Source: an uncultured Gemmatimonadales bacterium
Lineage (GTDB): Bacteria > Gemmatimonadota > Gemmatimonadetes > Longimicrobiales > RSA9
Assembly: GCA_963798085.1 (NCBI GenBank)
Contig: CAWCRS010000003.1
Coordinates: 960,001-1,024,000 of the forward strand
DNA: 64,000 nt
Reading direction: 5' to 3'
A program made the translations under genes and the position numbers. The notes beneath the pieces were generated by a model. The model was not told the origin of the DNA and did not search any database. It was given only the letters and a program-made list of their open reading frames with translations. Below are positions 11,844-53,613 of this stretch, piece after piece; positions within the stretch are counted from its first letter, which is position 1, and each line of letters opens with the position of its first letter.

Positions 11844-12114
11844 TCGGACCGTCTTGGCGTTCTTGGGTTTGGCGGGAGCTGTTATCGAACGCCCGAGCGC
11901 CTCCGAATTGTCACCCGCGAGGAGGATCCGGACGCTTGCGCGGTCCCGTTGTACCGGTAGCGGGCCAGGTGGTTGGGCGGACATGGCTTCAGCTCGTCCG
12001 ATGCTGCTATCGGCGCGCCCGGAGTGGACGGTTAGGGTGGCCAATGCCCTGGAGGCGAGGAAGGCCGCGGCATAGCGGGAACGGCCAGAACCCAAGAACG
12101 CCAAGACGGTCCGA
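11844..12114. repeat. 271-bp intergenic element bounded by a perfect 26-bp inverted repeat (REP/MITE-like)
   Basis: TCGGACCGTCTTGGCGTTCTTGGGTT at 11844-11869; exact reverse complement at 12089-12114. Confidence 0.85.
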
Positions 12115-38427: not shown

Positions 38428-40420
38428 ATGAAACGGACGACGAGCCTGGTTCTGGCGGTGGGCGCAGCGGCTGCGGCCGGCGCAATCGCCTGGGCGTGTC
38501 AGTCGGGAGGCGGAGCGCAGGGCTCCGTCGGATGCGGATGCAGCGAAGGCCGTGTACGTGCCACCCGGCCAGTACGATGAGTTCTACACCTTCTTCTCGG
38601 GCGGCTTCAGCGGCAATCTCACCGTGTACGGACTGCCTTCAGGGCGGCTGCTGCGCACGATTCCGGTATTCTCGCAGTACGCCGAGAACGGCTACGGCTA
38701 TTCGGAGGAGACGAAGGCCATGTTGAGTACGTCCTTCGGCCAGATCCCGTGGGACGACGCGCACCATCCGGAACTGTCGCAGACGGACGGCGTCCCGGAT
38801 GGCCGCTGGATCTTCATCAATGGCAACAACACGCCGCGCATCGCGCGCATCGACCTGACGCGCTTCGAGACGGAAGAGATCCTGCAGATCCCCAATTCGG
38901 CGGGCAACCACGGTTCGCCGTTCATCACTCCTAACAGCGAGTATGTCATTGCGGCGACACGCTTCAGCGTGCCCATTCCCAACCGCGATGTGTCCATCGA
39001 CGACTATCAGAGCCAGTTCAAGGGCACACTTACGTTCGTGCGTGCGAACGAGCCGGGAAAGATGTCGATCGCGTTCCAGATCCTGGTGCCGGGTTTCGAT
39101 TACGACCTGTCGCATGCGGGCAAGGGACCGTCCAATGGCTGGGCCTTCTTCACCTCGTACAACACCGAGCAGGCGCACTCGCTGCTCGAAGTCAACGCCT
39201 CGCAGAAGGACAAGGACTTCATTGCGGCGGTGAACTGGAAGCGCGCGGAGGAGTGCGTGGCGCAGGGCAAGGGCCGGCAGATGCCCGCCGACTATGCCCA
39301 CAACACACTGGGCCAGGACCGCATTGCGCACAGTGAGAAGCTGACCAGCGTGACCGTGCTGGAGGTGGGCGCCTGCTCCGACATGATGTACTTCCTGCCC
39401 ACACCCAAGTCACCGCACGGCGTCAATGTGGATCCCACGGGCGAGTACATCGTGGGCGGTGGCAAACTGGCCACGGTCATACCGGTGCACTCCTTCAGCA
39501 AGATGATCAAGGCCATCGCGAACAAGGATTTCGAGACCACGGTCAATGGCATTCCGGTGCTGAAGTACGAGTCGGTGATGGCGGGCGAAGTGCAGAATCC
39601 GGGACTGGGACCCCTGCACACGGAGTTCGACGGCAAGGGTTACGCGTACACCACCGCGTTCATCTCGTCGGAGATCGTGAAGTGGAAGCTGGGCACGTGG
39701 GAAGTCGTCGACCGGATTCCGGTCTATTACTCGGTGGGCCACCTGATGATTCCGGGTGGTGACAGCCGCCAGCCCGCGGGCAAGTACCTGGTCGCGCTCA
39801 ACAAGATCACCAAGGACCGCTATCTGCCCACCGGTCCGGAACTGGCGCAGGCCGCCCAGCTGATCGACATCAGCGGCGACAAGATGCGGCTGCTCCTCGA
39901 CTTTCCCACCATGGGCGAACCGCACTATGCACAGGGTATCGCGGCCAGTCTGATCAAGGACCGGCAGCTCAAGGTCTACGCGCTCGAGGACAACAAGAAC
40001 CCGGCGGTCACGCTGGGCGAGGATCGCGCGCACGTCGAGCGCAAAGGCAATGAAGTGCACGTCTACATGACGGCGATCCGCTCGCACTTCAATCCGGACA
40101 ACATCGAAGGCATCAAGGTCGGTGACGTTGTCTACTTCCATGTTACGAACCTCGAGCAGGACTGGGATGTGCCGCACGGCTTCGCGGCCATGGGCGCGCA
40201 GAACGCGGAGCTGCTGATCATGCCGGGTGAGACGCGCACGCTGCGCTGGGAGCCGAAGGCGCCGGGTGTGTATCCCTTCTACTGCACTGATTTCTGCTCG
40301 GCACTGCACCAGGAAATGCAGGGCTACGCGCGGGTCTCGGCCGCGGGGTCGAATGTGGCGCTACGCTGGGGCACGGGTGGCAGCTGGACGACCAGCGCGT
40401 CCGTGGCAGGCGGCAACTGA
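38428..40420 (+). CDS. nosZ: Nitrous-oxide reductase, clade II (Sec/lipoprotein signal; frameshift near 38530)
   Basis: CuZ His motifs DAHHP, GNHG, SPHG, GPLH, VGHL, EPH; CuA HGF and FYCTDFCSALHQEM; signal MKRTTSLVLAV..AWAC without a Tat motif lies in another frame. Confidence 0.95.
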
Positions 40421-40514
40421 CGTTCGAGGGGCGATGTCGTCACACACGACATCGCCCCTCCCGGTTTCCGGCGGCGTGAGCCGCCCACGTTCCCATGAGG
40501 ACAGAGAAAAGACG

Positions 40515-41180
40515 ATGAGGACCGGTTCGAGATGGTTGGCAGGCATCAGCGCGCTGGCTCTGGCGCTGGCTTTCGTGCTGCCCCTGTGGAGCATACGGCT
40601 GAAGGCGCCGCAGTATCCCGAAGGCCTGGGCATGCACATCCGCGTGAACAACATCACCGGTGTCCGACCGAACGACCTGCGCAGCATCAACGGCCTCAAT
40701 CACTACATCGGCATGGCGAAGATCGAACCCGGCTCGATTGCGGAGCTGCGCTACATGCCGTGGATCCTGGGCGGACTGATTGCGCTCGGCCTGATGGCGG
40801 CAATCAGCGGCAAACGGGCCGTGCTCGCGGGCTGGGCGGCGACATTCATGATCGCAGCTGCGCTCGGCCTCGCCGACTTCTACCGCTGGGGCTACGACTA
40901 CGGGCATCACCTGAATCCGGAAGCGGCCATCAAGATCCCCGGCATGGCGTATCAGCCGCCACTCATCGGGTCGAAGAAAATCCTCAACTTCACGGCCAAC
41001 TCGTGGCCCGCGAGCGGCGGCTGGATCATGATCGCGGCATTCCTGACCATCCTCGCTCTTGTGGCGTTCGAGCTGCGTGCACGCGCGCAGCGGCAAACTG
41101 CGCACGTGGGCGATCCGCCGGTGGAGCCCTCCGGCGCATCGCTACGGCGTGGTGCGCCAGGCGCGACAGTCGGGCATTGA
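40515..41180 (+). CDS. nosB: Clade II nos transmembrane protein
   Basis: LKAPQYPEGL, INGLNHYIGM, DYGHHLNP, YQPPLIG; directly after nosZ. Confidence 0.85.
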   Translation: MRTGSRWLAGISALALALAFVLPLWSIRLKAPQYPEGLGMHIRVNNITGVRPNDLRSINGLNHYIGMAKIEPGSIAELRYMPWILGGLIALGLMAAISGKRAVLAGWAATFMIAAALGLADFYRWGYDYGHHLNPEAAIKIPGMAYQPPLIGSKKILNFTANSWPASGGWIMIAAFLTILALVAFELRARAQRQTAHVGDPPVEPSGASLRRGAPGATVGH

Positions 41181-42964
41181 AGGCGACCGTGCGTCTTCCG
41201 CTCTTCGCACTGACCATGAGCGCGCTGCTGGCCGCAGCGTGTTCGAGCGGCCCGCGGCCCATCCGGTTCGGTCAGGACAAATGCGAGTTCTGCCTGATGG
41301 GCAATGCCGAGGAGCGCTTCGCGGCGGAACTCGTCACGCGCACGGGCAAGACGCACATCTTCGATTCCGCCGAGTGCCTGGCGGGCTTCGTCGCTTTCCC
41401 GCTGCAGCACGAGGCGACGCGCTCCCTGTGGGTCACCGATTATGAGAGTCCGCCACGCCTCATTGATGCGCGCAGGGCGTTCTTCCTGGAGAGCGGTGGC
41501 ATCAGCAGCCCGATGGGCCTGGGTATCGCCGCGTTCGCCAGCCGCGAGGCGCGCGACGCGGCCCGGCAGCGGCTGGGCGGGCACGATCTGGACTGGAACG
41601 GGCTGTTAGAGGCGGTGCGACTGGCCTGGCCGAATGGATCACCCCACGGCCTGGCCCACGCCGCGGACGCCATGCAGGCGATGCCGGGCATGAACGCCAT
41701 GCAATCACCACCGCGCGTGCACTCCGCGGCGCAGGCAGTCGCGCGATACCCGGAGCCAGCGAGTCTGCGGACGGAAAGTCTGCCCGCTCGAGCGCCCACG
41801 CTGGCCGAGCTGGTGGCGAGGGCGGCGCCGGGCGAGCGCGTGGTTCTGCCGGCTGGCGTCTACCGCGAACCCACCGTAGTGATCGACAAGCCACTCGAGC
41901 TGCTGGGCAACGGCGACGCGGTGCTGGACGCGGAGAATTCGCGGGCGCTGCTGCTGGTGCAGGCCGACAATGTGACGATACGCGGGCTGGTGCTGCGCAA
42001 CATCGGCACCACCTACACCGAAGATCGAGCCGCCATCCGGGTGCAGCAGTCGCGCAACTGCCGCATCGAGCAGAATCGCATCGAGAACGGCTTTTTTGGC
42101 ATTTACCTGGCCAATGTCAGCGATTGTGTGGTCCGTCACAACACGCTGTCAGCCAACGCCACGCGGGAGAGCGCCGCAGGCAACGGCATCCACCTGTGGC
42201 ATGCGCGGCGGGTCACGCTGGAAGACAACACGGTGCGCGGCTTCCGCGACGGCATCTACTTCGAGTTCACGAAGGACAGCCGCGTGCACGGCAACATCAG
42301 CGAGCACAACCTGCGCTACGGCCTGCACTTCATGTTCTCGGACAGCTGTCATTACGTACGCAACAGCTTCCGCGCGAACGGCGCGGGTGTGGCCGTCATG
42401 TACACGCACTTCGTCGAAATGACGGGCAACGAATTCGCCGACAACCGCGGCTCGTCGACGTACGGGCTGCTCCTCAAGGAGATCCGCGACAGCCGCATCA
42501 CCGGCAACACCTTCACGGGCAACTCGGTGGCACTCTACGCCGAGGGCTCGGACCGGCTGACCGTTGCGGACAACGACTTCCGGGCCAACGGCTGGGCGCT
42601 CAAGCTCATGGCCAATGCCGAGAACAACCGGTTCACGGGCAACAACTTCATCGGGAACACGTTCGACGTGGCCACCAACAGCCGCGCCAACTACAGCCTG
42701 TTCCAGGGCAACTACTGGGACCGGTACCGCGGTTACGACCTGGATCACGACGGCACCGGCGATTCACCGGAGCGGCCCGTGCGGCTGTTCTCCGTGCTCG
42801 TCGAGCGTAATGCGCCGTCGCTCATTCTGCTGCGCAGCTTTCTGGTGAGGCTGCTGGACGCGGCAGAAGCCGTTGTGCCGGCGCTCACACCCGCGACGCT
42901 CGTGGATGCGCGCCCGCTGATGCGCGCCGCGGTGCGCAGGCCGCTGGCGAGGAGCGGCTCATGA
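41177..42964 (+). CDS. nosL/nosD: NosL-NosD fusion (Cu chaperone plus beta-helix maturation protein)
   Basis: TTG overlaps the nosB stop; AAAC lipobox, CEFCLM, FDSAECL, SPMG (NosL); His/Met linker; then GNGIHLW, RDGIYFEF, LRYGLHFMFS, GNYWD.Y.GYDL (NosD). Confidence 0.85.
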   Translation: MKATVRLPLFALTMSALLAAACSSGPRPIRFGQDKCEFCLMGNAEERFAAELVTRTGKTHIFDSAECLAGFVAFPLQHEATRSLWVTDYESPPRLIDARRAFFLESGGISSPMGLGIAAFASREARDAARQRLGGHDLDWNGLLEAVRLAWPNGSPHGLAHAADAMQAMPGMNAMQSPPRVHSAAQAVARYPEPASLRTESLPARAPTLAELVARAAPGERVVLPAGVYREPTVVIDKPLELLGNGDAVLDAENSRALLLVQADNVTIRGLVLRNIGTTYTEDRAAIRVQQSRNCRIEQNRIENGFFGIYLANVSDCVVRHNTLSANATRESAAGNGIHLWHARRVTLEDNTVRGFRDGIYFEFTKDSRVHGNISEHNLRYGLHFMFSDSCHYVRNSFRANGAGVAVMYTHFVEMTGNEFADNRGSSTYGLLLKEIRDSRITGNTFTGNSVALYAEGSDRLTVADNDFRANGWALKLMANAENNRFTGNNFIGNTFDVATNSRANYSLFQGNYWDRYRGYDLDHDGTGDSPERPVRLFSVLVERNAPSLILLRSFLVRLLDAAEAVVPALTPATLVDARPLMRAAVRRPLARSGS

Positions 42965-43737
42965 TCCGCGTGGAAGGGATCCGCAAGCGCTTCGGCGCGC
43001 TCCAGGTTCTGGCTGGCGTGAACCTGCGCATCGAGCGCGGTCGGGTCACCGCGATCGTAGGGCCCAACGGCTCGGGCAAGACCACGCTGATCAAGATGCT
43101 GTTAGGACTGGTCAGACCGGATGCGGGTCGCATTGTCTGGGAAGACCTGCTCGCCGTGCCGCCCCGGGGAGCCGAGGTTGCGCATGATGCGCATCAGGAA
43201 GGGCGCGACCTCGTGCTCAACGGCGACTGCCGCTATCGCGAGCGGGTCGGCTACATGCCGCAGATCGTGCGCTTTCCCGAGAACCTGAGTGGACGCGAGC
43301 TGCTGGCCATGATCACGGACCTGCGCCAGGCCAGCGCCGCACAGGCCGAGCTGGTTGCGCGCTTCGGGCTGGAACGCGATCTGGACAAGCCCTTCCGCAC
43401 GCTGTCCGGCGGCACGCGACAGAAGGTGAATGCTGTGCTGGCATTCGGGTTCCAGCCCGACCTGCTCATCCTCGATGAGCCGACCGGCGGCCTGGATCCG
43501 GTCGCGGCGCGCACCCTGAAGGCGCACGTGCGCGAGCAGCGCGCGCAGGGGCGGACGGTGCTGCTGACCTCGCACGTCATGAGCGAGCTGGAAGCGCTGG
43601 CAGACAATGTGGCATTCCTGCTGGATGGCCAGGTCCGCTACCGCGGCACGCTCGACGAGCTGAAGCGTCTCACCGCGGAGCAGACACTGGAAGGCGCCGT
43701 CGCCAGCCTGATGACGGACGGAATGGCGTCACAATGA
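42961..43737 (+). CDS. nosF: ABC ATPase NosF
   Basis: GPNGSGKT, GYMPQ, LSGGTRQK, ILDEP, TSH. Confidence 0.9.
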   Translation: MIRVEGIRKRFGALQVLAGVNLRIERGRVTAIVGPNGSGKTTLIKMLLGLVRPDAGRIVWEDLLAVPPRGAEVAHDAHQEGRDLVLNGDCRYRERVGYMPQIVRFPENLSGRELLAMITDLRQASAAQAELVARFGLERDLDKPFRTLSGGTRQKVNAVLAFGFQPDLLILDEPTGGLDPVAARTLKAHVREQRAQGRTVLLTSHVMSELEALADNVAFLLDGQVRYRGTLDELKRLTAEQTLEGAVASLMTDGMASQ

Positions 43738-44525
43738 ATACCACAGCGAAGATCCTGAAGTATGAACTGCGTGACGTGCTGCGCAGCCGCACACTGCTGC
43801 TGTACGGCGGCTTCTTCCTGCTTGCCTCGGAGCTGCTTTTCCGCTTCAGCAGTGATGGCGGCAAGGCGCTGCTGAGTCTGGCAGACGTCACTCTGCTGAT
43901 CGTGCCGCTGGTGAGCGTGGTTCTGGGGACGATGTTCGTGTACAACGCGCGCGAGTTCAACGAGCTGCTGCTGGCGCAGCCGGTGAACCGGCGCCAGCTG
44001 TTCGGTGGGCTCTACCTCGGTCTCACGCTGCCCCTGACAGCGAGTTATATGCTCGGCATTGGCGCGCCGGCGCTGCTGCACGGCCTGCACGGCGGTGTCG
44101 CCCCGCGCACCGTGCTCCTGCTGCTGCTTGCGGGGACGTTCCTGACGGCGATCTTCACGGCACTGGCATTCGCCGTGGCATTGCGCTTCGAGGACCGCGT
44201 GCGCGGCATGGGCGTAGCGCTGCTGCTCTGGCTGTTTCTCGGCGTGATTTACGATGGGCTCATCCTTCTCGGTGCGAACGTGTTCTACGCCTGGCCGCTC
44301 GAGAAACCGCTGCTCGTACTGACCCTGCTCAACCCGGTGGACCTCGCGCGTGTGCTGCTGCTGCTCGACTTCGACGTATCTGTGCTGATGGGCTACACGG
44401 GCGCCGTCTTCCGCGATTTCTTCGGCGGCCCGCTGGGACTGACCGTCGCCTCCGTCGCGCTCACCGCGTGGCTGGCAGCTCCCCTTGCGGCCGGCATGCG
44501 GGTGTTCGTGCGCAAGGACTTCTGA
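43734..44525 (+). CDS. nosY: ABC permease NosY
   Basis: REFNELLLAQPV, LLNPVDLARV, MGYTGA; multi-TM; operonic with nosF. Confidence 0.88.
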   Translation: MNTTAKILKYELRDVLRSRTLLLYGGFFLLASELLFRFSSDGGKALLSLADVTLLIVPLVSVVLGTMFVYNAREFNELLLAQPVNRRQLFGGLYLGLTLPLTASYMLGIGAPALLHGLHGGVAPRTVLLLLLAGTFLTAIFTALAFAVALRFEDRVRGMGVALLLWLFLGVIYDGLILLGANVFYAWPLEKPLLVLTLLNPVDLARVLLLLDFDVSVLMGYTGAVFRDFFGGPLGLTVASVALTAWLAAPLAAGMRVFVRKDF

Positions 44526-44553: not shown

Positions 44554-47079
44554 TCACTCTTCGCTGAGTGCGAGTGCGCTTTCGATCACGGCAATGTGGC
44601 TGAAGGCCTGGGGCACGTTGCCCAGCGCTTCGCCACTGATGGGATCATGCTCCTCGGACATGAGGCCGGTGGGCCCGGCCACGGACAGCATGCGGTCGAA
44701 CAGCGACTGCGCGTCCCGCCTGCGACCCAGCAGCGCGTAGGCGCGAATGAGCCAGCCCGTGCACAGCGTGAAACCGCCTTCACTGCCCGGCAATCCGTCA
44801 TCGCCCAGGTAGCGGAACACGACCGAGCCACGCAGCAGTCGCTGCTCGATGGCATCGACGGTGCCGAGGAAGCGCGGATCATCCGGCGCCAACAGTCCGC
44901 TGAGGCCGACGTGCAGTGTGGCCGCGTCCGGCTCTTCATCGCCGTAGGCAATGCAGAAGGCGTTGAGCTTGCGGCTGAAGCCGCGCTCGAGGATTTCGGC
45001 GGCAATCCGGTCACGCAGTGCACGCCAGCCGGGCGGCTCCGAGCCGTTGAGCTGCTCAGCCACAGCGATCGCGCGATCCACGGTCAGCCAGCACATGACC
45101 TTGGAGTGCACGTGGTGCCGGCGGGAGCGGCGGATTTCCCAGATGCCGTGGTCCGGCTCTTCCCAGCGGCTCTCCACCGCTTCCACCATGGCGCACACCA
45201 GGCGCCAGTGCTCGCTGGACAGCGGCGCATCACGCTCGGCGAGCAGTGCCAGCAGATCCACGATCGGCCCGAACACGTCCAGCTGCAGCTGCTGCGCGGC
45301 GGCATTGCCCACGCGCACCGGGCGGCTTGCGCGATACCCGGAAAGCTCGGGAATCACCGCTTCCGCACCGAGCTGCCCGCCTGTTACCGTGTACAGCGGC
45401 CGCAGCGCGGCGGGCGAATCATGCGTGTCGACCACAGTCAGAACCCAGTCGAGAAAACGCAGCGCCTCGCGCGTGCTGCCCAGCTTCGCCAGTGCGGTCG
45501 CGGCGAGTGCGCCGTCGCGCAGCCAGCAGTAGCGGTAGTCCCAGTTGCGTACGCCGCCGATTTCCTCCGGCAAACTGGTCGTCGCCGAGGCAATGATCGC
45601 GCCGGTCGGTTCATAACACAGTGCTTTGAGGAGCAGTGCACTGCGGCGCACGCGCGTGGGCGCAATGGCAGGGATCCGCAGACCCGAAGTCCAGTCCGAC
45701 CACCACGCGCGTGTTGCTTCCAGGCGGGCGCCCGCGCGCTGCCCGGGATCCGGAATGCTGCCTGACCCATAGACCAGCTCGAGAACGAGACTGCCACCAT
45801 CCAGGTCAACTTCGGCGCGCGCCGTCTGATGCGGCGCAGCGGCCTCGATGTGCCAGTCGAGTCCCGGCGCACGCAGCGTGATCGGTTCGTGCACGGCACT
45901 GACCACGATGCCGCCCGGCTTCACCTCGAGCCGCGTGTGCTCACGGCCGAAATCGAGACGAGGCGCGAACTCGATCTGCACACGGCCGCGGCCTTCGATG
46001 ATGCGGAACAGCTCGGAACGGCCGGCACGCTGGACGGGCCGACCACCGGAGCAATCCAGAAAGTCGGTGACCGAGAGGTCGGGCCAGTGCGTCTCGACGA
46101 TCATCGTGTCGCTTTCGTAGCGCTGCGTGGGGGTACCCAGGCGCCGGGCCGGACGCACCGCGAAGAACCCCGCTGTCGGGCCACCCACCAGCTCGGCGCA
46201 GATGGCGGGGGAGTCCACGCGTGGCAGGCACAGCCACACGATACGACCCTCGACCGTCAGCAGCGCGACGGCCCGGTGATCGGAGAGCAGCGAGTGCCGT
46301 TCGATCGGCATCGCGGCCTCGCCTTCGAGCCACGCACTGCGCAGCTCAGCCAGGCGGGCGAGCAAGCGGGCGACGTCTTCCGTGCCATCAATGCGGTAGG
46401 GCGCACGCGTCGCGCCGGGACCCACCTTCACGGCCAGATCCGGACCGCACAGCGTGGCGAACACATCTTCATCCGTCAGATCGTCGCCGAGAAAGACCAC
46501 CGCAGTGGCCGCGACGCGGTGGCGCAGTGTCTGCACCGCATCACCCTTGTCCGTGGCGACGACGCCCACATCGAGCACGGACTTGCCGTGGCGCAACGTG
46601 ACGCCCTCGAGCGTTGCCACACGCTCCAGTACCGCAGCCACCGCGCGCCGGGCGGTCTCGGGATCGGCATTGCGGTAGTGAAATGCAATGTTAGCCGGCT
46701 TCGCCTCCACCGCCAGGCCGCGACCCGAGCGCGCAATGTCGTCCAGCTCTTCCAGCACACGCTGGCGCAGCGCGATCTGCCCGGCCGAAAGTGTCTGCGC
46801 GAAATCGAGATCGAACTCACTGCCGTGACTGCCCACCAGGTGCACTTCGGGAGGCAGGCGGGAGAGCGCCGCGAGATCGCGCAGCGCGCGCCCCGAAATC
46901 AGCGCCACGTAGGTGTGTGGCAGATTGGCGAGCGCGCGCAGCGCCACCACGGACTCCCGCTGCGGCAGCGCGTGCGACGGATCGGGTACGATGGGCGCCA
47001 CCGTGCCATCGTAATCGGAAGCCACCAGGAGGACAGGCGTGCGCGCCAGCTCCCGGAGCCTGCTTTCCAGTTCGCTCAT
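44554..47079 (-). CDS. otsB: Trehalose-6-phosphate phosphatase fused to GH15 hydrolase
   Basis: HAD motifs [22 protein letters not shown], then GH15 motifs [39 protein letters not shown]. Confidence 0.88.
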
Positions 47080-48483
47080 GCAGACAGGGCCTGGAGGAAG
47101 GAGTCCGCCCAGTCGTATACCGTGTTGCGACGGACGGTGCGACGCAGATCGCGGACGCGGCGCCTCTGCTCCGCGGCCGACATGGTCAGCGCCGCGTGCA
47201 TGGCGGAATGCCAGCCCGTCAATGTCGTGGGGATTCACCAGCAACGCGGAGCGCAGCTCCACCGCCGCGCCCGTGAATTCACTGAGCAGCAGCACGCCAC
47301 GGTCGTGCGCGCGCGACGCCACCCATTCCTTGGCGACGAGATTCATGCCATCGCGCAGCGGGGTAACCGCCATGACATCCGAGGCCAGGTAAAGAGCGAC
47401 GAGCTGATCCGGCGGGTAGGTACGACGCGCGTAGTGCAGCACCGGCAGACCGATCTCGCCGAATTCGCCATTGATCTGGCCCACCAGCCGCTCGACACGC
47501 TTGCGCATGGTGCGATAGTCCGCCACCCGCTCGCGACTGGGCACCGCGATCTGCACGAACACACACTCCTCGCGGCGCACACGGCCGGAGCGCAGCAGCT
47601 CCGCGAACGCACGCAGCCGGATGTCGATGCCTTTCGTGTAATCCAGACGATCGACACCCAGGATGATGCGCCGCGAGCCGACACTGCGGCGGAACGCGTC
47701 GGCGCGACGCTCCGCTTCCGGCCGACTCGCCAGCTCCTCGAACATCGCGACATCAATGGAAACCGGGAACGCGCCCGACCGCACGGTGCGCCCCTGGTAC
47801 TGCAGTGTGCCATGCGCACCGGTCGCTCCACAGAAACGTTTGCTCAGGTCATCGAAATTGCGCGCCGCCTGCTCCGTCTGGAAGCCGACGACATGCGCAC
47901 CCAGCATGCCGTCCAGAACGGCGCGCCGCCACGGCAGCTTGGCGAACAGCTCGCGCGGCGGAAAGGGAATGTGCAGGAAAAAACCAATGCGCAGGTCAGG
48001 CCGCAGCTGCCGCACGAACGAAGGCACCAGCTGGAGGTGATAGTCATGCACCCAGACCAGAGCGCCGGGCGCCGCCACTTCCGCCACCGCGGCGGCGAAG
48101 CGGCGGTTGACGCGCACGTACGGCTCCCACCAGTCACGGCGGAAACGCGGTGGGCGCAATGCATCGTGATAGAGCGGCCAGAGCGTGCGGTTGCAGAAGC
48201 CTTCGTAGAAGTCGGCTACTTCGCGCGCCTCGAGCGCCACAGGATGCAGCCGCATGTGATCGTGCTCGAAAGGTTGCGGCGCTTCGCCTGGATAGCCGGG
48301 CCAGCCCACCCACACGCCCGTGCGCTCCGCCAGAATCGGCGCGAGGGCGCGCACCAGGCCCCCCGGACTGCTCCGCCAGCCAATGCCCGCACCGAGTCGC
48401 ACACAATGCACCGGTAACCGATTGGCGACGACCACCAGCTCCACATTGCTGGCTGCACCGCCGGCGCGGGTCTCAGCCGCCAC
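47076..48483 (-). CDS. otsA: Trehalose-6-phosphate synthase (frameshift near 47208)
   Basis: [45 protein letters not shown]; true C-terminus ..[14 protein letters not shown] in the shifted frame, with ATGA overlap to the next gene. Confidence 0.9.
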
Positions 48484-48596
48484 GGCGCGATGTACCGGGT
48501 GCGCTGCCCTTCAGGATCAACCGATTCCCCATGTGTGAGCGCAGCAAAACGCACAGGCGCGTACCCCGCTGTGGCGCCAATGTGCATGACGCTGAG

Positions 48597-48739
48597 CGGA
48601 CCGTCCTGGCATTCTTGCGTTGCGGCCGGTTCGGTCATGGGGCCGACTCGGTTACGTATCGACGGACCACTTTGCATGTCGGAGTGGGTCGCTGGAATGG
48701 GGGAAGAAGCCGAAAGGAAAGAACGCCAAGACGGTCCGA
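48597..48739. repeat. Second, 143-bp element bounded by the same inverted repeat
   Basis: CGGACCGTCCTGGCATTCTTGCGTT (3 mismatches to 11845-11869) and AAGAACGCCAAGACGGTCCGA (identical to 12094-12114). Confidence 0.8.
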
Positions 48740-48749
48740 CAGGGGTCTG

Positions 48750-50624
48750 TTAACCCGTGCGTGCGCGCGTGGTGACTCCGGGCGTAATGGGAGGCGAGGG
48801 CGCGAAGAGCGGCAGCGCCAGGGCGGTGGCGGCGCCAATGAGCAGACCGCTGACTGCGCCGATCACGATCGCGGGCACCATGGGTGCGCGAATGAGCGTG
48901 GGCAGGAATGCCTGCGTCGCGCCGACGAACCAGAGGTAGGCGAAGCCCCAGCCCACCACGTTCATGAAGACCCAGGCGAGGCGGCCGACGCCGCGCACGC
49001 GCGCAGCCCACGTCTGCGCCAGCCCGAGGATCACGCCATCGAGCACGCCCTTCATGAAGGCCGCGCCGTTCGAGACGTGCACCACGCCCCAGATGTTCTT
49101 CGAACTCTGCACCGGGATCTGCCAGCGCAGGATGCACGCGGCAATGATGGCGCCCATCCAGAGCTGCGCGGCCGGCGGCACGGATCGCTTGCGCAGGAAC
49201 AGCAGTGTCGCCAGACCCAGGAGCACGCCTTCGACCAGGCCGCCCACGAAGCGCGACGCCAGATTCCACTGCGCGAAACGCAGCAGGCCGCCCGTGATGA
49301 AACCGGACGCGGCGAAGGCCAGCGCATTCGCCGCCACCCACTCGCCGCGTGGCCCCAGACGCGTGAGCCAGTCGTTCACGGGCAGTCGGCTGAGCGATTC
49401 CGAAATCTGTTTCGCGGACGGCAGTGCAGCCAGCGAATCCGCGAGCGGCCGGCCGGCCGGGCCCGGCTGTATCGCCGCGCCGGTGCCATGAGGCGGTGTC
49501 GCCGTCTGTGCTGCGGCCGGCCCCGCGCCTGACAGCATGTTAGGGGCAGGCGACGATGCCAGTTCCGCCGTCGTTCCCGTGGCTGGCGCCACTGCCGCTG
49601 CAGCGGGCGGAACCAGCGGGCCAGCAGGCGGTGCAGCCGCCGACGACGGGCGCACGCTGAGGGGCGAGGCGCGCAACACATCCTCGGCAGCCTGGCGCAC
49701 CTGTTTGCTACGGTCGGCGTCCGCAATGCGCTGCAGCGCAGTACGCGCGGCCACCGCCACGGAAGCATCGGGACTGACGAGCAGCCGCTCCAGCTCGCGC
49801 ACAGCGGTGAGGCGGACGGCCGCCTGCGTGTCTTCCAGCTGGTGGCGCACACCGGAGGGCAGCGAAACCGGCAGCGAGTGCTGGCGTCGCGGATTGCGCG
49901 CGATTACCAGCATGCCCTGCTGGTTGTAGACCCACTTGCGCGGCGTCTGGCTGGGCGTCGAGCTGACGATCTTTCCGTACGCGTAATCGTACAGCGCATC
50001 GAGCGTGATGGTGTCCTCACTCGATGCGGCGCCTGTTACGAGCCCCTCCAGCAGGTAGTGCGTGAACAGCGAAAGCTCGGCCCGTTCGATGACGCGGTCC
50101 CCTTCGAGTGCGTACTGCGTGGCGTCCGATGCGGTGAGTACCACGCGGCCGTAGCCGTTGCCCGCGAACATGTCCGCGGTCACGGCAGTGGGATCGCCTT
50201 TCACGCCGCGCGCGAACGCGCCGCTGTTGCAGCAGTCGAGGATGAGGATCTGGCGCTTGGACCGGCACTCGTCCATGTGCTCGACCACGAAGCCGGAGGA
50301 GATGGCGGTGGCGCTGAGCTGGTGGTAGTCGGTGTCGCGCACCGCGAGGTACAGGCGGCCGCGATCATCCTTCACGCCGTGACCGGAGAAGAAGAACAGC
50401 AGCAGGTCATCGGGATGGCGGCGCGTGAAGAAGTCGGCAATGGCGCGCCGCACGATGGACTCGCTCTGGTCGATCAGCTCCTGGACCTGATCGAACTCGC
50501 CAATGCCGGGATCACGCAACGCTGCGGCCAGCGAGCGCACATCCGCGGCGGGCGCCTTGAGCCGGGTGAGCGTGGCGTCGTCATACGTGCTGTTGCCAAT
50601 GAACAGCGCGAGTCGCTTCGGCAT
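48750..50624 (-). CDS. Caspase-like (C14) protease with HEAT-like repeat and C-terminal multi-TM region
   Basis: ALFIGNSTY, FFFSGHG (catalytic His), ILDCCNSG (catalytic Cys), SLFTHYLLEGL, QTP. Confidence 0.9.
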   Translation of the reverse strand: MPKRLALFIGNSTYDDATLTRLKAPAADVRSLAAALRDPGIGEFDQVQELIDQSESIVRRAIADFFTRRHPDDLLLFFFSGHGVKDDRGRLYLAVRDTDYHQLSATAISSGFVVEHMDECRSKRQILILDCCNSGAFARGVKGDPTAVTADMFAGNGYGRVVLTASDATQYALEGDRVIERAELSLFTHYLLEGLVTGAASSEDTITLDALYDYAYGKIVSSTPSQTPRKWVYNQQGMLVIARNPRRQHSLPVSLPSGVRHQLEDTQAAVRLTAVRELERLLVSPDASVAVAARTALQRIADADRSKQVRQAAEDVLRASPLSVRPSSAAAPPAGPLVPPAAAAVAPATGTTAELASSPAPNMLSGAGPAAAQTATPPHGTGAAIQPGPAGRPLADSLAALPSAKQISESLSRLPVNDWLTRLGPRGEWVAANALAFAASGFITGGLLRFAQWNLASRFVGGLVEGVLLGLATLLFLRKRSVPPAAQLWMGAIIAACILRWQIPVQSSKNIWGVVHVSNGAAFMKGVLDGVILGLAQTWAARVRGVGRLAWVFMNVVGWGFAYLWFVGATQAFLPTLIRAPMVPAIVIGAVSGLLIGAATALALPLFAPSPPITPGVTTRARTG

Positions 50625-50655
50625 CGTCGCGCGCGCGAACCGGGATCGGAAAGGG

Positions 50656-51030
50656 TCAGGCCTTGGCGGTGGCGCCCGTCTTGAACGAAGCGGCCAGTCG
50701 GGCGAATTCGTCGATGGCGCCCTGGAACTTCACCGGATTGCCGTTCACCTGGCCCTCGAACATGATCGTGCCGCCCGTCTTGTGCAGCCGCTTCTGCAGC
50801 AGTGCCAGCACGATCTCGAGCGCCGTGGCGGACGCCTTTACGAGGAGCACGATCGTGTCCGCGTCGATGCCCTTGGTACCGGGCGGCGCGGTCCCTTCGT
50901 GCACGATTTCGGCGGACTCCACAGGCTGATCGCGCAGCTCGTGCAGCAGATCCCGTGTCAGCAGATCGATCTCTTCGCGGTCACCGTCGGCGGAACCGAC
51001 TTTGATCCTGAACTCGAGCGGTCTGGTCAT
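50656..51030 (-). CDS. EACC1-like small protein (effector-associated constant component)
   Basis: DREEIDLLTRDLLHEL..V......APPGTKG followed by a hydrophobic helix; directly upstream of the caspase; recognised by pattern and context, not HMM. Confidence 0.7.
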   Translation of the reverse strand: MTRPLEFRIKVGSADGDREEIDLLTRDLLHELRDQPVESAEIVHEGTAPPGTKGIDADTIVLLVKASATALEIVLALLQKRLHKTGGTIMFEGQVNGNPVKFQGAIDEFARLAASFKTGATAKA

Positions 51031-51121
51031 GGCAAGCGCCGGGGAGAGGGGTCAGGCGATGTCGACTTTCGATTATCGCGACGAGCCCGTTCCGCGTCCA
51101 GAGTGCGGCCGCGGGCGCGGC

Positions 51122-51487
51122 TCAGCAGGGCTTGTTCTCCAGAACCTCGATCCGATCCGGCAGGTTGGGAACGACGCAGAGGAATTCGAAGGGTTCGTCG
51201 CCCTCGGCTTCGTACCAGTGGGGCATGCCCGCCGGAATGTAGACCACGTCATTGACCTTGACCTCGAACACGCTGTCGCCAATGCCGACGCGAGCGCGGC
51301 CGCGCAACACGAACTGCTCGTGCTCGACCACGTTCGTGTGGCGAGGCATGCCGCCGCCCGGTTCCATGATGAAGCGGCGCATCGCGAAGTGCGGGCCCTC
51401 GTCCGGCCCGATCAGTACCTGGAAGCGTGCATCCTTGCCGGCCTTCACCACCTGTGCCGGTACCGTTTCCGCCGGTTTCACCGCCAT
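51122..51487 (-). CDS. Cupin-domain protein
   Basis: MPRHTNVVEHEQFVLRG and IPAGMPHWY cupin motifs. Confidence 0.88.
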   Translation of the reverse strand: MAVKPAETVPAQVVKAGKDARFQVLIGPDEGPHFAMRRFIMEPGGGMPRHTNVVEHEQFVLRGRARVGIGDSVFEVKVNDVVYIPAGMPHWYEAEGDEPFEFLCVVPNLPDRIEVLENKPC

Positions 51488-51501
51488 GGTCGGAGCCCTC
51501 C

Positions 51502-52440
51502 TCAGTCGGCGAACGCGAGCTGGCCGCGCGCCCGTAATTCCTGCGGCAGCAGACTGCCCAGGATGAAGTCGTGGACAGGTGTGGGCACGCCGCTCTGCCG
51601 GCCGAACCGGACGACGGCGCCGCACCAGTCGTCCAGCTCGGAGGCACGACCGGCCGCGATATCGCGCTGCAGCGAGATCGTGCTGGCGGGCGCGAGGCTT
51701 TCGAGGAACTTCCAGGCGCGGCCCACCACCTGGTCGTCCAGAGCGATGCCCAGCGCGCGGGTGACCGCTTCGATTTCCCGGATTGCCTGATCCAGCAGCC
51801 GGCGGGTCTCGGGCAGATCCCGCAGTACGCCGACCGGCGCGCGCGTGATGGCACCGACGCCGCCCGCGGGCACCACATTGAGCAGCTTTTCCCACAAGGC
51901 GAGCCGGATGTCAGGAGAGACGGTCGCCTTGATGCCGGGCACATCGAGCAGGTCACGCACCCGCTGCGCGCGCTCGCTCGGCCGGCCATCACGCTCGCCC
52001 AGCTCGATGGCGGCGGGCCCGCCCACATGGCGGACGTGACCCGGGCCGGCGAGAAAGCTCACAATGCGGGCCGTGCCGCCCAGCACGGGCGGGTCGCCCA
52101 GGACGGCCGCAAGCCGGTCCGGCGCTTCCACGCCGTTCTGCATGGGCAGCACCGACGTGCCCTCACCCACCATCGGACGCATGGCCTCGGCGGCTTCGGT
52201 CACCTGCCAGGTCTTGACGCCCACCAGCACGAGGTCGACGGGACCGACGTCCGACGGCTCCGATGTCGCAGCCGGCCGCACGTGCACATCGCCCAGCACG
52301 CTCTCCAGGCGCAAACCCGACTGGCGCAGTGCCTGGAGATGCGCACCACGCGCGATCAGCGTGACTTCATGCCCCGCCGCAGCCAGCCGGCCCCCGAAAT
52401 AGGCGCCGGTGCCACCCGCGCCGAAAACCGCGATTCGCAT
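51502..52440 (-). CDS. panE: 2-dehydropantoate 2-reductase (PanE/ApbA family)
   Basis: GAGGTG, VKTWQ, MQNGV, WEKL, SLQRDI.AGR.SE. Confidence 0.88.
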   Translation of the reverse strand: MRIAVFGAGGTGAYFGGRLAAAGHEVTLIARGAHLQALRQSGLRLESVLGDVHVRPAATSEPSDVGPVDLVLVGVKTWQVTEAAEAMRPMVGEGTSVLPMQNGVEAPDRLAAVLGDPPVLGGTARIVSFLAGPGHVRHVGGPAAIELGERDGRPSERAQRVRDLLDVPGIKATVSPDIRLALWEKLLNVVPAGGVGAITRAPVGVLRDLPETRRLLDQAIREIEAVTRALGIALDDQVVGRAWKFLESLAPASTISLQRDIAAGRASELDDWCGAVVRFGRQSGVPTPVHDFILGSLLPQELRARGQLAFAD

Positions 52441-52467
52441 GCGCCACAATACGCCCTCGGCTGGCGC

Positions 52468-52513
52468 AAAAAAAGCCGGGCCCGGCGTCGCGTGAGCGGC
52501 TCCGGGCCTCGGC
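52468..52513 (-). terminator. Intrinsic terminator just upstream of panE
   Basis: GC stem (GCCGAGGCCCGG...CCGGGCCCGGC) followed by T7 on the minus strand. Confidence 0.55.
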
Positions 52514-52780
52514 GGGGGCGAGCGGGTTTCAGGGGAGGCTCGCATCGGTGCGCGACGTCTGGCGTCGCTGGCTGACACGTTACTACAGCGATCCGCATGC
52601 CCATCGCGCAGGACGGCGCAAGCCGGCGTAATTCGTTGTTATACAAGCGAAAGTCACAATACGGGCCGGCCGTGAAGCGCTGAATTGTCGGCCGGATACC
52701 CCAGAAATCGTTGTGAGGGAGCAACAATGCGGTGAAGCGGAGAGCCTTGCGGAACGGCGCAAGTCGTTACGCGAAGCCGA

Positions 52781-53338
52781 TCAACGCCAGCCGGTGTGCT
52801 TCTGCGGCGATGTGGGAGGACGGCGCCGGAAAGGAATGACGTAGGGCTGCTCCGGCAGCTCGGGCAGGCGGTCGAGCGTGGCGGCAGGCAGGGCATCGCG
52901 GCCCGCGATCCAGCCCTTGCCGCCAAGCACTATGAGGACCGGCACTGCCAGGGTCGCGACCAGCAGGGCGCGCAGCGACGTCGCATCGAACCCGGTCCGA
53001 CTTCCTGCGTCCACGACCGCCCGCACCTGCGCATAGTCGAGCAGGAAGCGTACGATCGAGGCGCCCAGCAACAGTGCGCCAACAAGGGCGAAAGCCGAGA
53101 GCAGCCGCAGCAGGAGCCGGTGGCCCAGCGTGACGGCAACGGTCATCGCGAGAGCCAGCCCGAGCAGCTGCAGGATCACAGCGCTGAAGCCAATGCCCAG
53201 CGAACCGAAGCGCCAGGAGGCTTCAAGCGGGCGAACGGGGAAGGCGGAAACCAGGTCGATGGCCGGACCAACCACGAGGAAGGCTGCCACTGCGTACAGG
53301 CCGGGGAGGAAGCTCCGAACGTCGGCGTTGCGGACCAT
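52781..53338 (-). CDS. Hypothetical 4-TM membrane protein
   Basis: Four hydrophobic helices, WRFGSLG segment, protein-like composition. Confidence 0.7.
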   Translation of the reverse strand: MVRNADVRSFLPGLYAVAAFLVVGPAIDLVSAFPVRPLEASWRFGSLGIGFSAVILQLLGLALAMTVAVTLGHRLLLRLLSAFALVGALLLGASIVRFLLDYAQVRAVVDAGSRTGFDATSLRALLVATLAVPVLIVLGGKGWIAGRDALPAATLDRLPELPEQPYVIPFRRRPPTSPQKHTGWR

Positions 53339-53613
53339 GGGCCGTCCTTCGAAAGGGCAAACGCGCTGGTCCGCTGGAATTGCGAAACCCGTGCCCTGGA
53401 CGGTCCGAACACGTAACGCCGTGTCGGCTACTCAGTTGTCACTCGATACATCGGGTGACGAAGGGGCCGGTAGCGGCCACGAGGTGGGGCAGCCGTTCGC
53501 TGGCTGTTGCCCGCCAGCTACAGCGTCACGCGTGGCAAGTCCCGGAAGAGGTGCCGCCTGGGTCCGGCGATGCGGCCGCCGCGCTGACCGGTGTGGCTAG
53601 CGGCTGCTTGACG

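What the first reader, a model, noticed from the sequence alone, without database searches (positions are those of the whole stretch)
48750..51030. EACC1-like protein plus membrane-anchored caspase: candidate conflict/cell-death module
Seen: a 124-aa ORF lies 31 bp upstream of a C14 protease with an intact His/Cys dyad (FSGHG, LDCC). The protease continues into a HEAT-like helical repeat, a Pro/Ala linker and several TM helices. Known: EACC1-caspase pairs were described computationally as biological-conflict systems with a constant EACC1 and variable caspase C-termini. Inference: the multi-TM C-terminus may sense a membrane or phage signal and activate the protease, with the small protein as substrate or effector. 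The pair sits among unrelated metabolic genes, with an inverted-repeat element 10 bp past its stop.
Basis: partly seen in the sequence, partly recalled or inferred. Interest (0 to 1): 0.75.

Follow-up and report, generated by a model that had tools for sequence, protein, structure and literature searches.

The report
Membrane caspase with EACC1 death effector
Two adjacent genes encode a caspase-like protease with a predicted membrane anchor and a small partner of the known EACC1 family; the protease likely cuts the partner after a lysine to release a predicted pore-forming, cell-killing fragment, and it carries a matching site in its own linker that would act as a built-in lock.

Summary
Observation confirmed. 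This is a known kind of system. The 624-aa protease passes the NCBIfam 'EACC1-associated caspase' cut-off. The 124-aa ORF misses the Pfam EACC1 cut-off, but its family aligns with canonical EACC1 (hhalign 95%), precedes 67 of 79 close caspases and is fused to one. A 2025 preprint showed for another member that the caspase cuts EACC1 into a membrane-permeabilising toxin. So the small protein is likely the effector.

What may be new: this is a Lys-type branch with an acidic, MALT1-like S1 pocket. The EACC1 loop residue (K, M, L or Q) recurs in the partner caspase's own linker in 33 of 38 pairs. That suggests a self-site lock, but it is not significant once kinship is counted.

The trigger is unknown. 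There is no defence-island context, and the complex prediction was weak. The downstream inverted repeat is an unrelated genome-wide tyrosine-transposase repeat, which the scan noted earlier elsewhere in this genome.

The parts
50656..51030 (-). Divergent Lys-type EACC1 protein, 124 aa (P0002); likely latent pore-forming effector
   Evidence: Pfam EACC1 15.4 bits, under the 23.6 cut-off; 73 bits on a profile of 62 caspase-linked ORFs built without it; its family vs canonical EACC1: hhalign 95%, E 3.9e-8, 116 columns
50869..50880 (-). G51-T-K53-G54 loop; predicted cleavage after Lys53
   Evidence: K or R in 122 of 123 family members; exposed loop, pLDDT under 50 at 47-55
50797..50853 (-). Hydrophobic segment 60-78 with small-residue patch A66-A70
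   Evidence: Kyte-Doolittle 19-mer 2.25; modelled as strand plus helix inside the soluble fold
49890..50624 (-). Caspase (C14) domain, EACC1-associated type; His82/Cys132; acidic S1 residues Asp28, Asp130 and probably Glu174
   Evidence: NF047832 171.3 bits, cut-off 140; MALT1 is the closest solved relative by sequence and fold; these residues invariant in 58 of 58
50196..50207 (-). Caspase linker G140-V-K142-G143, a look-alike of the EACC1 loop; predicted self-site
   Evidence: Motif in 66 of 68 close caspases with an EACC1 partner and 4 of 59 distant caspases; pLDDT under 50 at 134-145
49668..49856 (-). Helical hairpins, HEAT-like (residues 257-319); optional in the family
   Evidence: Model; found in 78 of 119 homologues; absent from P0006-P0009
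49449..49655 (-). Pro/Ala-rich disordered linker (324-392)
   Evidence: Sequence; pLDDT under 50
48822..49352 (-). Predicted six-helix membrane domain (425-601), no named family
   Evidence: no Pfam or NCBIfam hit; shared with 7 of 119 homologues; Atlas leads for the homologue P0008 are unnamed clusters and FHA fusions
48597..48739 (.). 143-144 bp miniature inverted-repeat element of a tyrosine-transposase (TIRtron/REPIN-like) family; not part of the module
   Evidence: 122 places in the genome; the same ends flank the genome's only Y1_Tnp gene, NF047646 80.9 bits vs cut-off 80
51072..51100 (-). Promoter-like site upstream of the pair (weak)
   Evidence: 1 found, 0.4 expected in shuffles

Best explanation
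This is a two-gene EACC1-caspase module: the protease is predicted to sit in the membrane, and once activated it likely cuts the small EACC1 protein after Lys53, which would free the C-terminal half (54-124) to form a membrane pore and kill or arrest the cell. Shown here: family membership, conserved pairing, intact dyad, acidic S1 residues, a conserved basic residue in an exposed loop. Taken from another member (Evans et al.): cleavage, toxicity of the C-terminal fragment, liposome leakage. Inferred: P1 is Lys53; the protease's own G-V-K142-G linker is a self-cleavage or pseudosubstrate site that gates activity; clustering or distortion of the membrane domain (envelope damage, or a phage membrane protein) is the likely trigger, the weakest step.
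For: Caspase passes NF047832. EACC1-like ORF directly upstream of 67 of 79 close caspases and 0 of 70 distant ones (9 and 2 loci dropped for short flanks; 62 of the ORFs built the profile; many loci are near kin). Natural EACC1-caspase-helical-membrane fusion P0170. hhalign places Lys53 opposite the Met of canonical EACC1. The monomer model puts the N-terminal strands and helix in one alpha/beta fold with the C-terminal strands, with the Lys loop between them, in keeping with Evans section 9. A cut after K53 gives 5.9 + 7.4 kDa against 5.7 + 7.1 kDa reported. Asp28 and Asp130 align with MALT1 aspartates that I match by position to Asp365 and Asp462 of its S1 pocket (PMC4357240). 18 of 18 pairs with a basic EACC1 residue have the acidic pocket; 0 of 20 others do. 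Complex prediction: weak support, 0.35 vs best control 0.00; the mark was reached by 116 of 157 solved complexes and 2 of 215 mismatches, but at 0.60 or under by only 18 of the 157 and by both mismatches; runs agree in at least 16% of contacts; partner pLDDT at least 64.
Against: P0002 is under the Pfam cut-off and scores only 3.0 bits on a profile of 20 canonical EACC1 proteins. It lacks the Trp, Pro and Gly that are over 90% conserved in its own subfamily. Evans et al. place the putative cut at an Asp in their member, and column 56 is Asp or Glu in 103 of 123. No defence-island context: 3 of 109 neighbour ORFs from 17 loci hit PADLOC, all generic enzymes. 12 of 79 close caspases have no EACC1 upstream. 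The Glu174 = Glu500 match rests on position and recall; no tool aligned it. The basic/non-basic split is one branch of the tree, and the linker match is not significant over independent pairs. One of three complex runs scored 0.00.
Confidence: 0.7

Rival explanations
1. Membrane-stress or developmental signalling rather than anti-phage suicide, or a module whose effector is drifting: the cut still happens, but this copy does not defend against phage.
For: Metabolic neighbours here and in related loci; no STAND or other recognised phage sensor; GC3 0.84-0.87, like its neighbours; missing conserved Trp/Pro/Gly in P0002; Evans raise a stress role for DnaK fusions.
Against: Very patchy distribution (1 of 201 genomes of the order; 6 of 401 over the cut-off in another phylum) and highly variable C-termini fit conflict systems; both ORFs and all catalytic residues are intact.
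Confidence: 0.15
2. Original Kaur 2020 model: EACC1 is a membrane sensor that switches on the caspase, which cuts itself and releases or activates its C-terminal part, here the six-helix membrane domain, as effector.
For: PMC7159879 section 33; the caspase has a conserved candidate self-site; EACC1 has a hydrophobic segment.
Against: In the one tested member EACC1 is the substrate and its C-fragment the toxin; EACC1 carries its own conserved site matched to the pocket; some close caspases have no membrane helices.
Confidence: 0.08
3. Same system, but the cut is at an acidic residue (Asp56) as proposed for the Ktedonobacter protein, and the linker likeness is shared ancestry without function.
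For: Putative Asp49 site in Evans section 9, from a model; a cut after D56 gives 6.2 + 7.1 kDa; column 56 acidic in 103 of 123; only 3 independent pairs for the linker test.
Against: Asp itself in only 45 of 123, against K/R in 122 of 123 at column 53; an acidic pocket goes with basic P1 in characterised C14 enzymes (PMC5756287, PMC4357240); K/K, M/M, L/L and Q/Q matches with none going the opposite way.
Confidence: 0.07

Closest known systems
EACC1-caspase two-gene system, 'System 4' (Kaur, Burroughs, Iyer, Aravind 2020, PMC7159879; Pfam PF19953, NCBIfam NF047832)
   Same: Gene order, small EACC1 first, N-terminal caspase, variable C-terminus; the paper says at least 33% of the caspases carry membrane helices.
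   Different: Lys-type loop and acidic S1 pocket, where the Pfam-typical actinobacterial pairs examined have Met/Leu/Gln and mostly Asn/Ser; poorly covered by Pfam; C-terminus is helical hairpins plus an unnamed membrane domain.
Ktedonobacter racemifer EACC1-KrAvs12 (Evans et al. 2025, 10.1101/2025.11.14.688446)
   Same: EACC1 upstream of a caspase domain; similar size, predicted fold and fragment masses.
   Different: There the caspase is fused to a STAND sensor of phage tail connectors and the putative cut is at Asp49; here no STAND domain and a predicted Lys site.
MALT1 paracaspase and orthocaspases (family C14B)
   Same: Closest solved structure; acidic S1 pocket; self-processing is reported for orthocaspase MaOC1 (PMC5756287 passages).
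   Different: No immunoglobulin or death domains; MALT1 needs no cut in loop L4 for activation, so the linker here may be a pseudosubstrate or may not be cut.
TIRtrons/TIRYT repeats (Di Nocera 2013, PMC3733652) and REPIN-RAYT systems
   Same: Applies to the downstream repeat only: one tyrosine transposase gene between inverted ends that recur as gene-less pairs.
   Different: Unrelated to the protease pair; not found in 40 related genomes searched.

Membership tests
EACC1-caspase system | 5' gene encodes an EACC1 domain | tested here: met
   Met by profile chain, not by the Pfam cut-off: 15.4 vs 23.6 bits; EACC1 is the top Pfam family of its relatives, 23 of 123 at E up to 0.05, best 3.5e-8; hhalign 95%, E 3.9e-8
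EACC1-caspase system | Single hydrophobic helix with a small-residue patch, flanked by alpha+beta elements | tested here: met
   Segment 60-78 with A66-A70; alpha+beta model
EACC1-caspase system | 3' gene with N-terminal caspase of the EACC1-associated type, dyad intact | tested here: met
   NF047832 171.3 vs 140; His82, Cys132
EACC1-caspase system | Conserved pairing with variable caspase C-terminus | tested here: met
   67 of 79; propeller, sulfatase-modifying, membrane or no extra domains among homologues
EACC1-caspase system | Caspase cleaves EACC1 and the C-fragment permeabilises membranes | not testable with these tools
   Shown for one other member; complex prediction weak
EACC1-caspase system | Activation by a phage signal | not testable with these tools
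   No recognised sensor domain; no defence-island context
EACC1-caspase system | Association with multicellular hosts | not tested
   Statistical trait in PMC7159879; host lifestyle not examined
Arg/Lys-specific C14B proteases (paracaspase/metacaspase type) | Acidic S1 triad (MALT1 Asp365, Asp462, Glu500) | tested here: inconclusive
   Asp28 and Asp130 align with MALT1 aspartates; Glu174 is invariant but its match to Glu500 is by recalled position only
TIRtron/REPIN-type repeat (downstream element) | Dispersed inverted pairs whose ends also flank a tyrosine transposase gene | tested here: met
   208 end sites vs 0 in the reversed genome; L205:404-1420 passes NF047646 between the same ends

The most novel reading that the evidence does not exclude
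EACC1 caspases carry a copy of their effector's cleavage residue in their own post-catalytic linker, as a self-cleavage or pseudosubstrate lock, and pocket, linker and effector loop have been re-coded together (Lys, Met, Leu, Gln). This gives a readable specificity code for the family. The window holds a Lys-type, membrane-anchored form with no known phage sensor, which would fire on envelope damage.
Probability: 0.35. Interest if true: 0.7.

Novelty: new variant of a known kind. Interest (0 to 1): 0.45.

Why it matters
The system type is published and one member has been tested, so the pair itself is a moderate find. Two things make it useful. First, the published cut site for EACC1 is model-based; the pocket-loop-linker match predicts the site for each pair from sequence and offers a way these proteases stay off, which three point mutants can test. 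Second, the Lys-type branch is large (2,756 cluster representatives at E up to 0.001, which may include canonical members), mostly under the Pfam cut-off, and often membrane-anchored (81 of 119 homologues with three or more predicted helices), so it points to an untested class of trigger.

Tried and rejected
Single-sequence search with the small protein found only itself among 24 candidates. Search with the membrane domain among longer proteins found only itself (weak evidence). Fold searches of the EACC1 model gave only generic ferredoxin-like matches, best Z 8.9 at rmsd 4.1 over 96 residues; this neither supports nor excludes a family. Rfam found nothing in 47500-53500. PADLOC gave a generic caspase hit and a chance-level hit for the small protein. 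NCBIfam has no model for the small protein's family. An empty-site test through panE found no close syntenic relative to compare: 8 of 25 genomes matched, relatives at 39-51% identity, and I did not inspect their flanks. No RNA holder listed; the one run laid may be the source sample and was uninformative. A profile search of solved structures did not reach the Glu174 region. attC site or terminator as identity of the repeat: set aside because the sequence shows no attC core sites (my reading) and the terminator scan is at chance level. Target-site duplication: only 8 of 44 at 2 bp, none longer. The independent-pairs test of the linker match was not significant. 11 of 40 loci in the covariation set had no EACC1 found upstream and were left out, as were 2 of 11 earlier loci without a called caspase ORF and one duplicate.

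Full report
Observation. Both genes are as described: 124 aa at 51030-50656 and 624 aa at 50624-48750, minus strand, 31 bp apart. The protease has His82 and Cys132, helical hairpins, a disordered Pro/Ala linker and six predicted membrane helices. GC and GC3 match the neighbours, which are PanE, a cupin and trehalose genes.

The protease. It scores 171.3 bits on NCBIfam NF047832 'caspase, EACC1-associated type', cut-off 140. It is the only such gene in the genome and the only one over the cut-off among 41 genomes of relatives, own included. Named close homologues are from Gemmatimonadota and Chloroflexota. Of 119 homologues, 78 share the helical hairpins, 81 have three or more predicted membrane helices, and 7 share this particular membrane domain. 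Four of those lack the hairpins. The membrane domain has no named family. Atlas results for the homologue P0008 score under 0.9 by features, and by structure (TM 0.64-0.69) point to unnamed stand-alone proteins and FHA fusions. It looks like a reusable membrane module; nothing here shows what it senses.

The small protein. Pfam EACC1 gives 15.4 bits against a cut-off of 23.6, so the label needed testing. In 160 loci of related caspases, an ORF of this type lies directly upstream of 67 of 79 close caspases and 0 of 70 distant ones (9 and 2 loci dropped for short flanks; the profile was built from 62 of these ORFs, and many loci are near kin). That profile, built without P0002, scores it at 73 bits. 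A library-wide search found 2,756 representatives at E up to 0.001. EACC1 is their top Pfam family, 23 of 123 scanned, and one, P0170, is a natural fusion of EACC1 to the same kind of caspase with helical and membrane parts. The family aligns to 20 canonical EACC1 proteins with probability 95%, E 3.9e-8, although P0002 alone scores only 3.0 bits on their profile and lacks a Trp, Pro and Gly that its subfamily conserves. The profile finds it in 1 of 201 genomes of the order, the own genome.

What is known. Kaur et al. 2020 (PMC7159879; passages and section 33 read) defined the system and noted membrane helices in at least a third of the caspases. Evans et al. 2025 (10.1101/2025.11.14.688446; abstract, passages, sections 4 and 9 read; supplements not seen) showed for a Ktedonobacter pair that the caspase cuts EACC1 into 5.7 and 7.1 kDa pieces, that only the C-piece is toxic, and that cleaved EACC1 leaks liposomes; their Asp49 site is putative, from a model. 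Our monomer model is in keeping with their description, with an exposed low-confidence loop at 47-55. The complex prediction gave weak support only: 0.35 against a best control of 0.00, one of three runs at 0.00, contact agreement at least 16%, partner pLDDT at least 64; such passes are more often wrong than right unless the pair was likely beforehand.

Where it likely cuts. MALT1 is the closest solved relative. Asp28 and Asp130 align with MALT1 aspartates that I match by position to Asp365 and Asp462, which with Glu500 set its P1 specificity (PMC4357240 passages). Glu174 is invariant, but its match to Glu500 is recalled, not aligned. In EACC1, column 53 is Lys or Arg in 122 of 123, while column 56 is Asp in 45 and Glu in 58. 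So Lys53 is the likely P1.

The linker match. The caspase has G-V-K142-G just after its catalytic Cys; such a motif is in 66 of 68 close caspases with a partner, 12 of 14 without, and 4 of 59 distant ones. I fetched 30 plasmid loci and 10 other loci. In the first batch, nine pairs with Pfam-typical EACC1 (79-109 bits) had Met or Leu in the loop, Asn or Ser in place of Asp28, and the same Met or Leu in the caspase linker, 9 of 9. Over 38 pairs the loop residue recurs at +9 or +10 after the Cys in 33; among 20 non-basic pairs in 18 (shuffle mean 8.9), including two Gln/Gln; among the 11 non-basic pairs outside the first nine in 9 (shuffle mean 4.2). All 18 basic pairs have the acidic pocket and none of the 20 others has both acids. 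Caveats: the +9/+10 window was fixed after I saw; shifted controls reach 1 to 9 of 20; five pairs miss, one clearly (L236, Leu vs Met); shuffles ignore kinship. On the tree the basic/non-basic split is a single branch, the loop residue changes five times, and only three independent pairs exist, 1-2 going the same way, none opposite, not significant. This is a lead, not a proof. I found no paper stating it: (17 papers hold 'EACC1', four about this domain), and no hit for autocleav, self-cleav, autoproteo or lysine in the preprint's main text. Kaur proposed auto-proteolysis in general terms; PMC8195603 and 10.64898/2026.10.19.760177 (passages) add nothing on it. Self-processing is reported for orthocaspase MaOC1 (PMC5756287 passages), while MALT1 needs no L4 cut.

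Defence context. Of 109 neighbour ORFs from 17 long loci, 3 hit PADLOC at 1e-20, all generic enzymes. The 52 of them scanned in Pfam are mostly metabolic or regulatory, with further caspase genes at three loci. One viral contig carries a relative. Anti-phage defence is therefore inherited from the family, not shown for this branch.

The inverted repeat. It belongs to a dispersed family, 122 places by profile and 208 end sites against 0 in the reversed genome. The genome's only Y1_Tnp gene lies between the same ends and passes NF047646. This fits TIRtron/REPIN-type elements (PMC3733652 passages; PMC3337134 and PMC3116915 seen as search listings only). Earlier notes of this scan on the same genome gave me the TIRtron name and the idea of helical phasing; 49 pair lengths other than 140-147 bp do show a 10.55-bp period, 0 of 2,000 random sets reaching it (nested copies not removed). 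It is unrelated to the protease pair.

Verdict. A real, intact, divergent member of a known and partly characterised system. New variant of a known kind, interest 0.45, with the specificity-code reading as the part worth pursuing.

Noticed in passing
window 46950-47260 (minus strand): The otsA-like frame shifts near its end and runs on into the otsB-trehalase frame, giving one 1,309-aa ORF; what reads as the usual OtsA end lies in another frame. Real frameshift or assembly error; the run laid did not cover the spot.
   Followed up: partly
L205:327-1382 (G000:C8:104626-105681): Tyrosine transposase gene (NF047646) between the ends of the dispersed repeat; probable parent of the family.
   Followed up: yes
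window 11844-12114: A second, 271-bp member of the same repeat family.
   Followed up: partly
P0145, P0177, P0209: Lys-type EACC1 fused to other C-terminal domains that by eye resemble CHAT and TIR domains (labels recalled, not scanned).
   Followed up: no
L032, L033, L034: EACC1-caspase pairs inside runs of further caspase genes, two loci with a caspase-FHA fusion: possible protease cascades.
   Followed up: no
L243, L245: Streptomyces plasmid pairs with Gln in both the EACC1 loop and the caspase linker: a possible Gln-specific caspase class.
   Followed up: partly
L236:325-2132: EACC1-caspase followed by an annotated dnaK, like the DnaK-linked forms in Evans et al.; also the clearest mismatch in the linker test.
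   Followed up: partly
window 38552-44525: Gene run that reads by eye as a nitrous-oxide reductase cluster (label recalled, not scanned).
   Followed up: no
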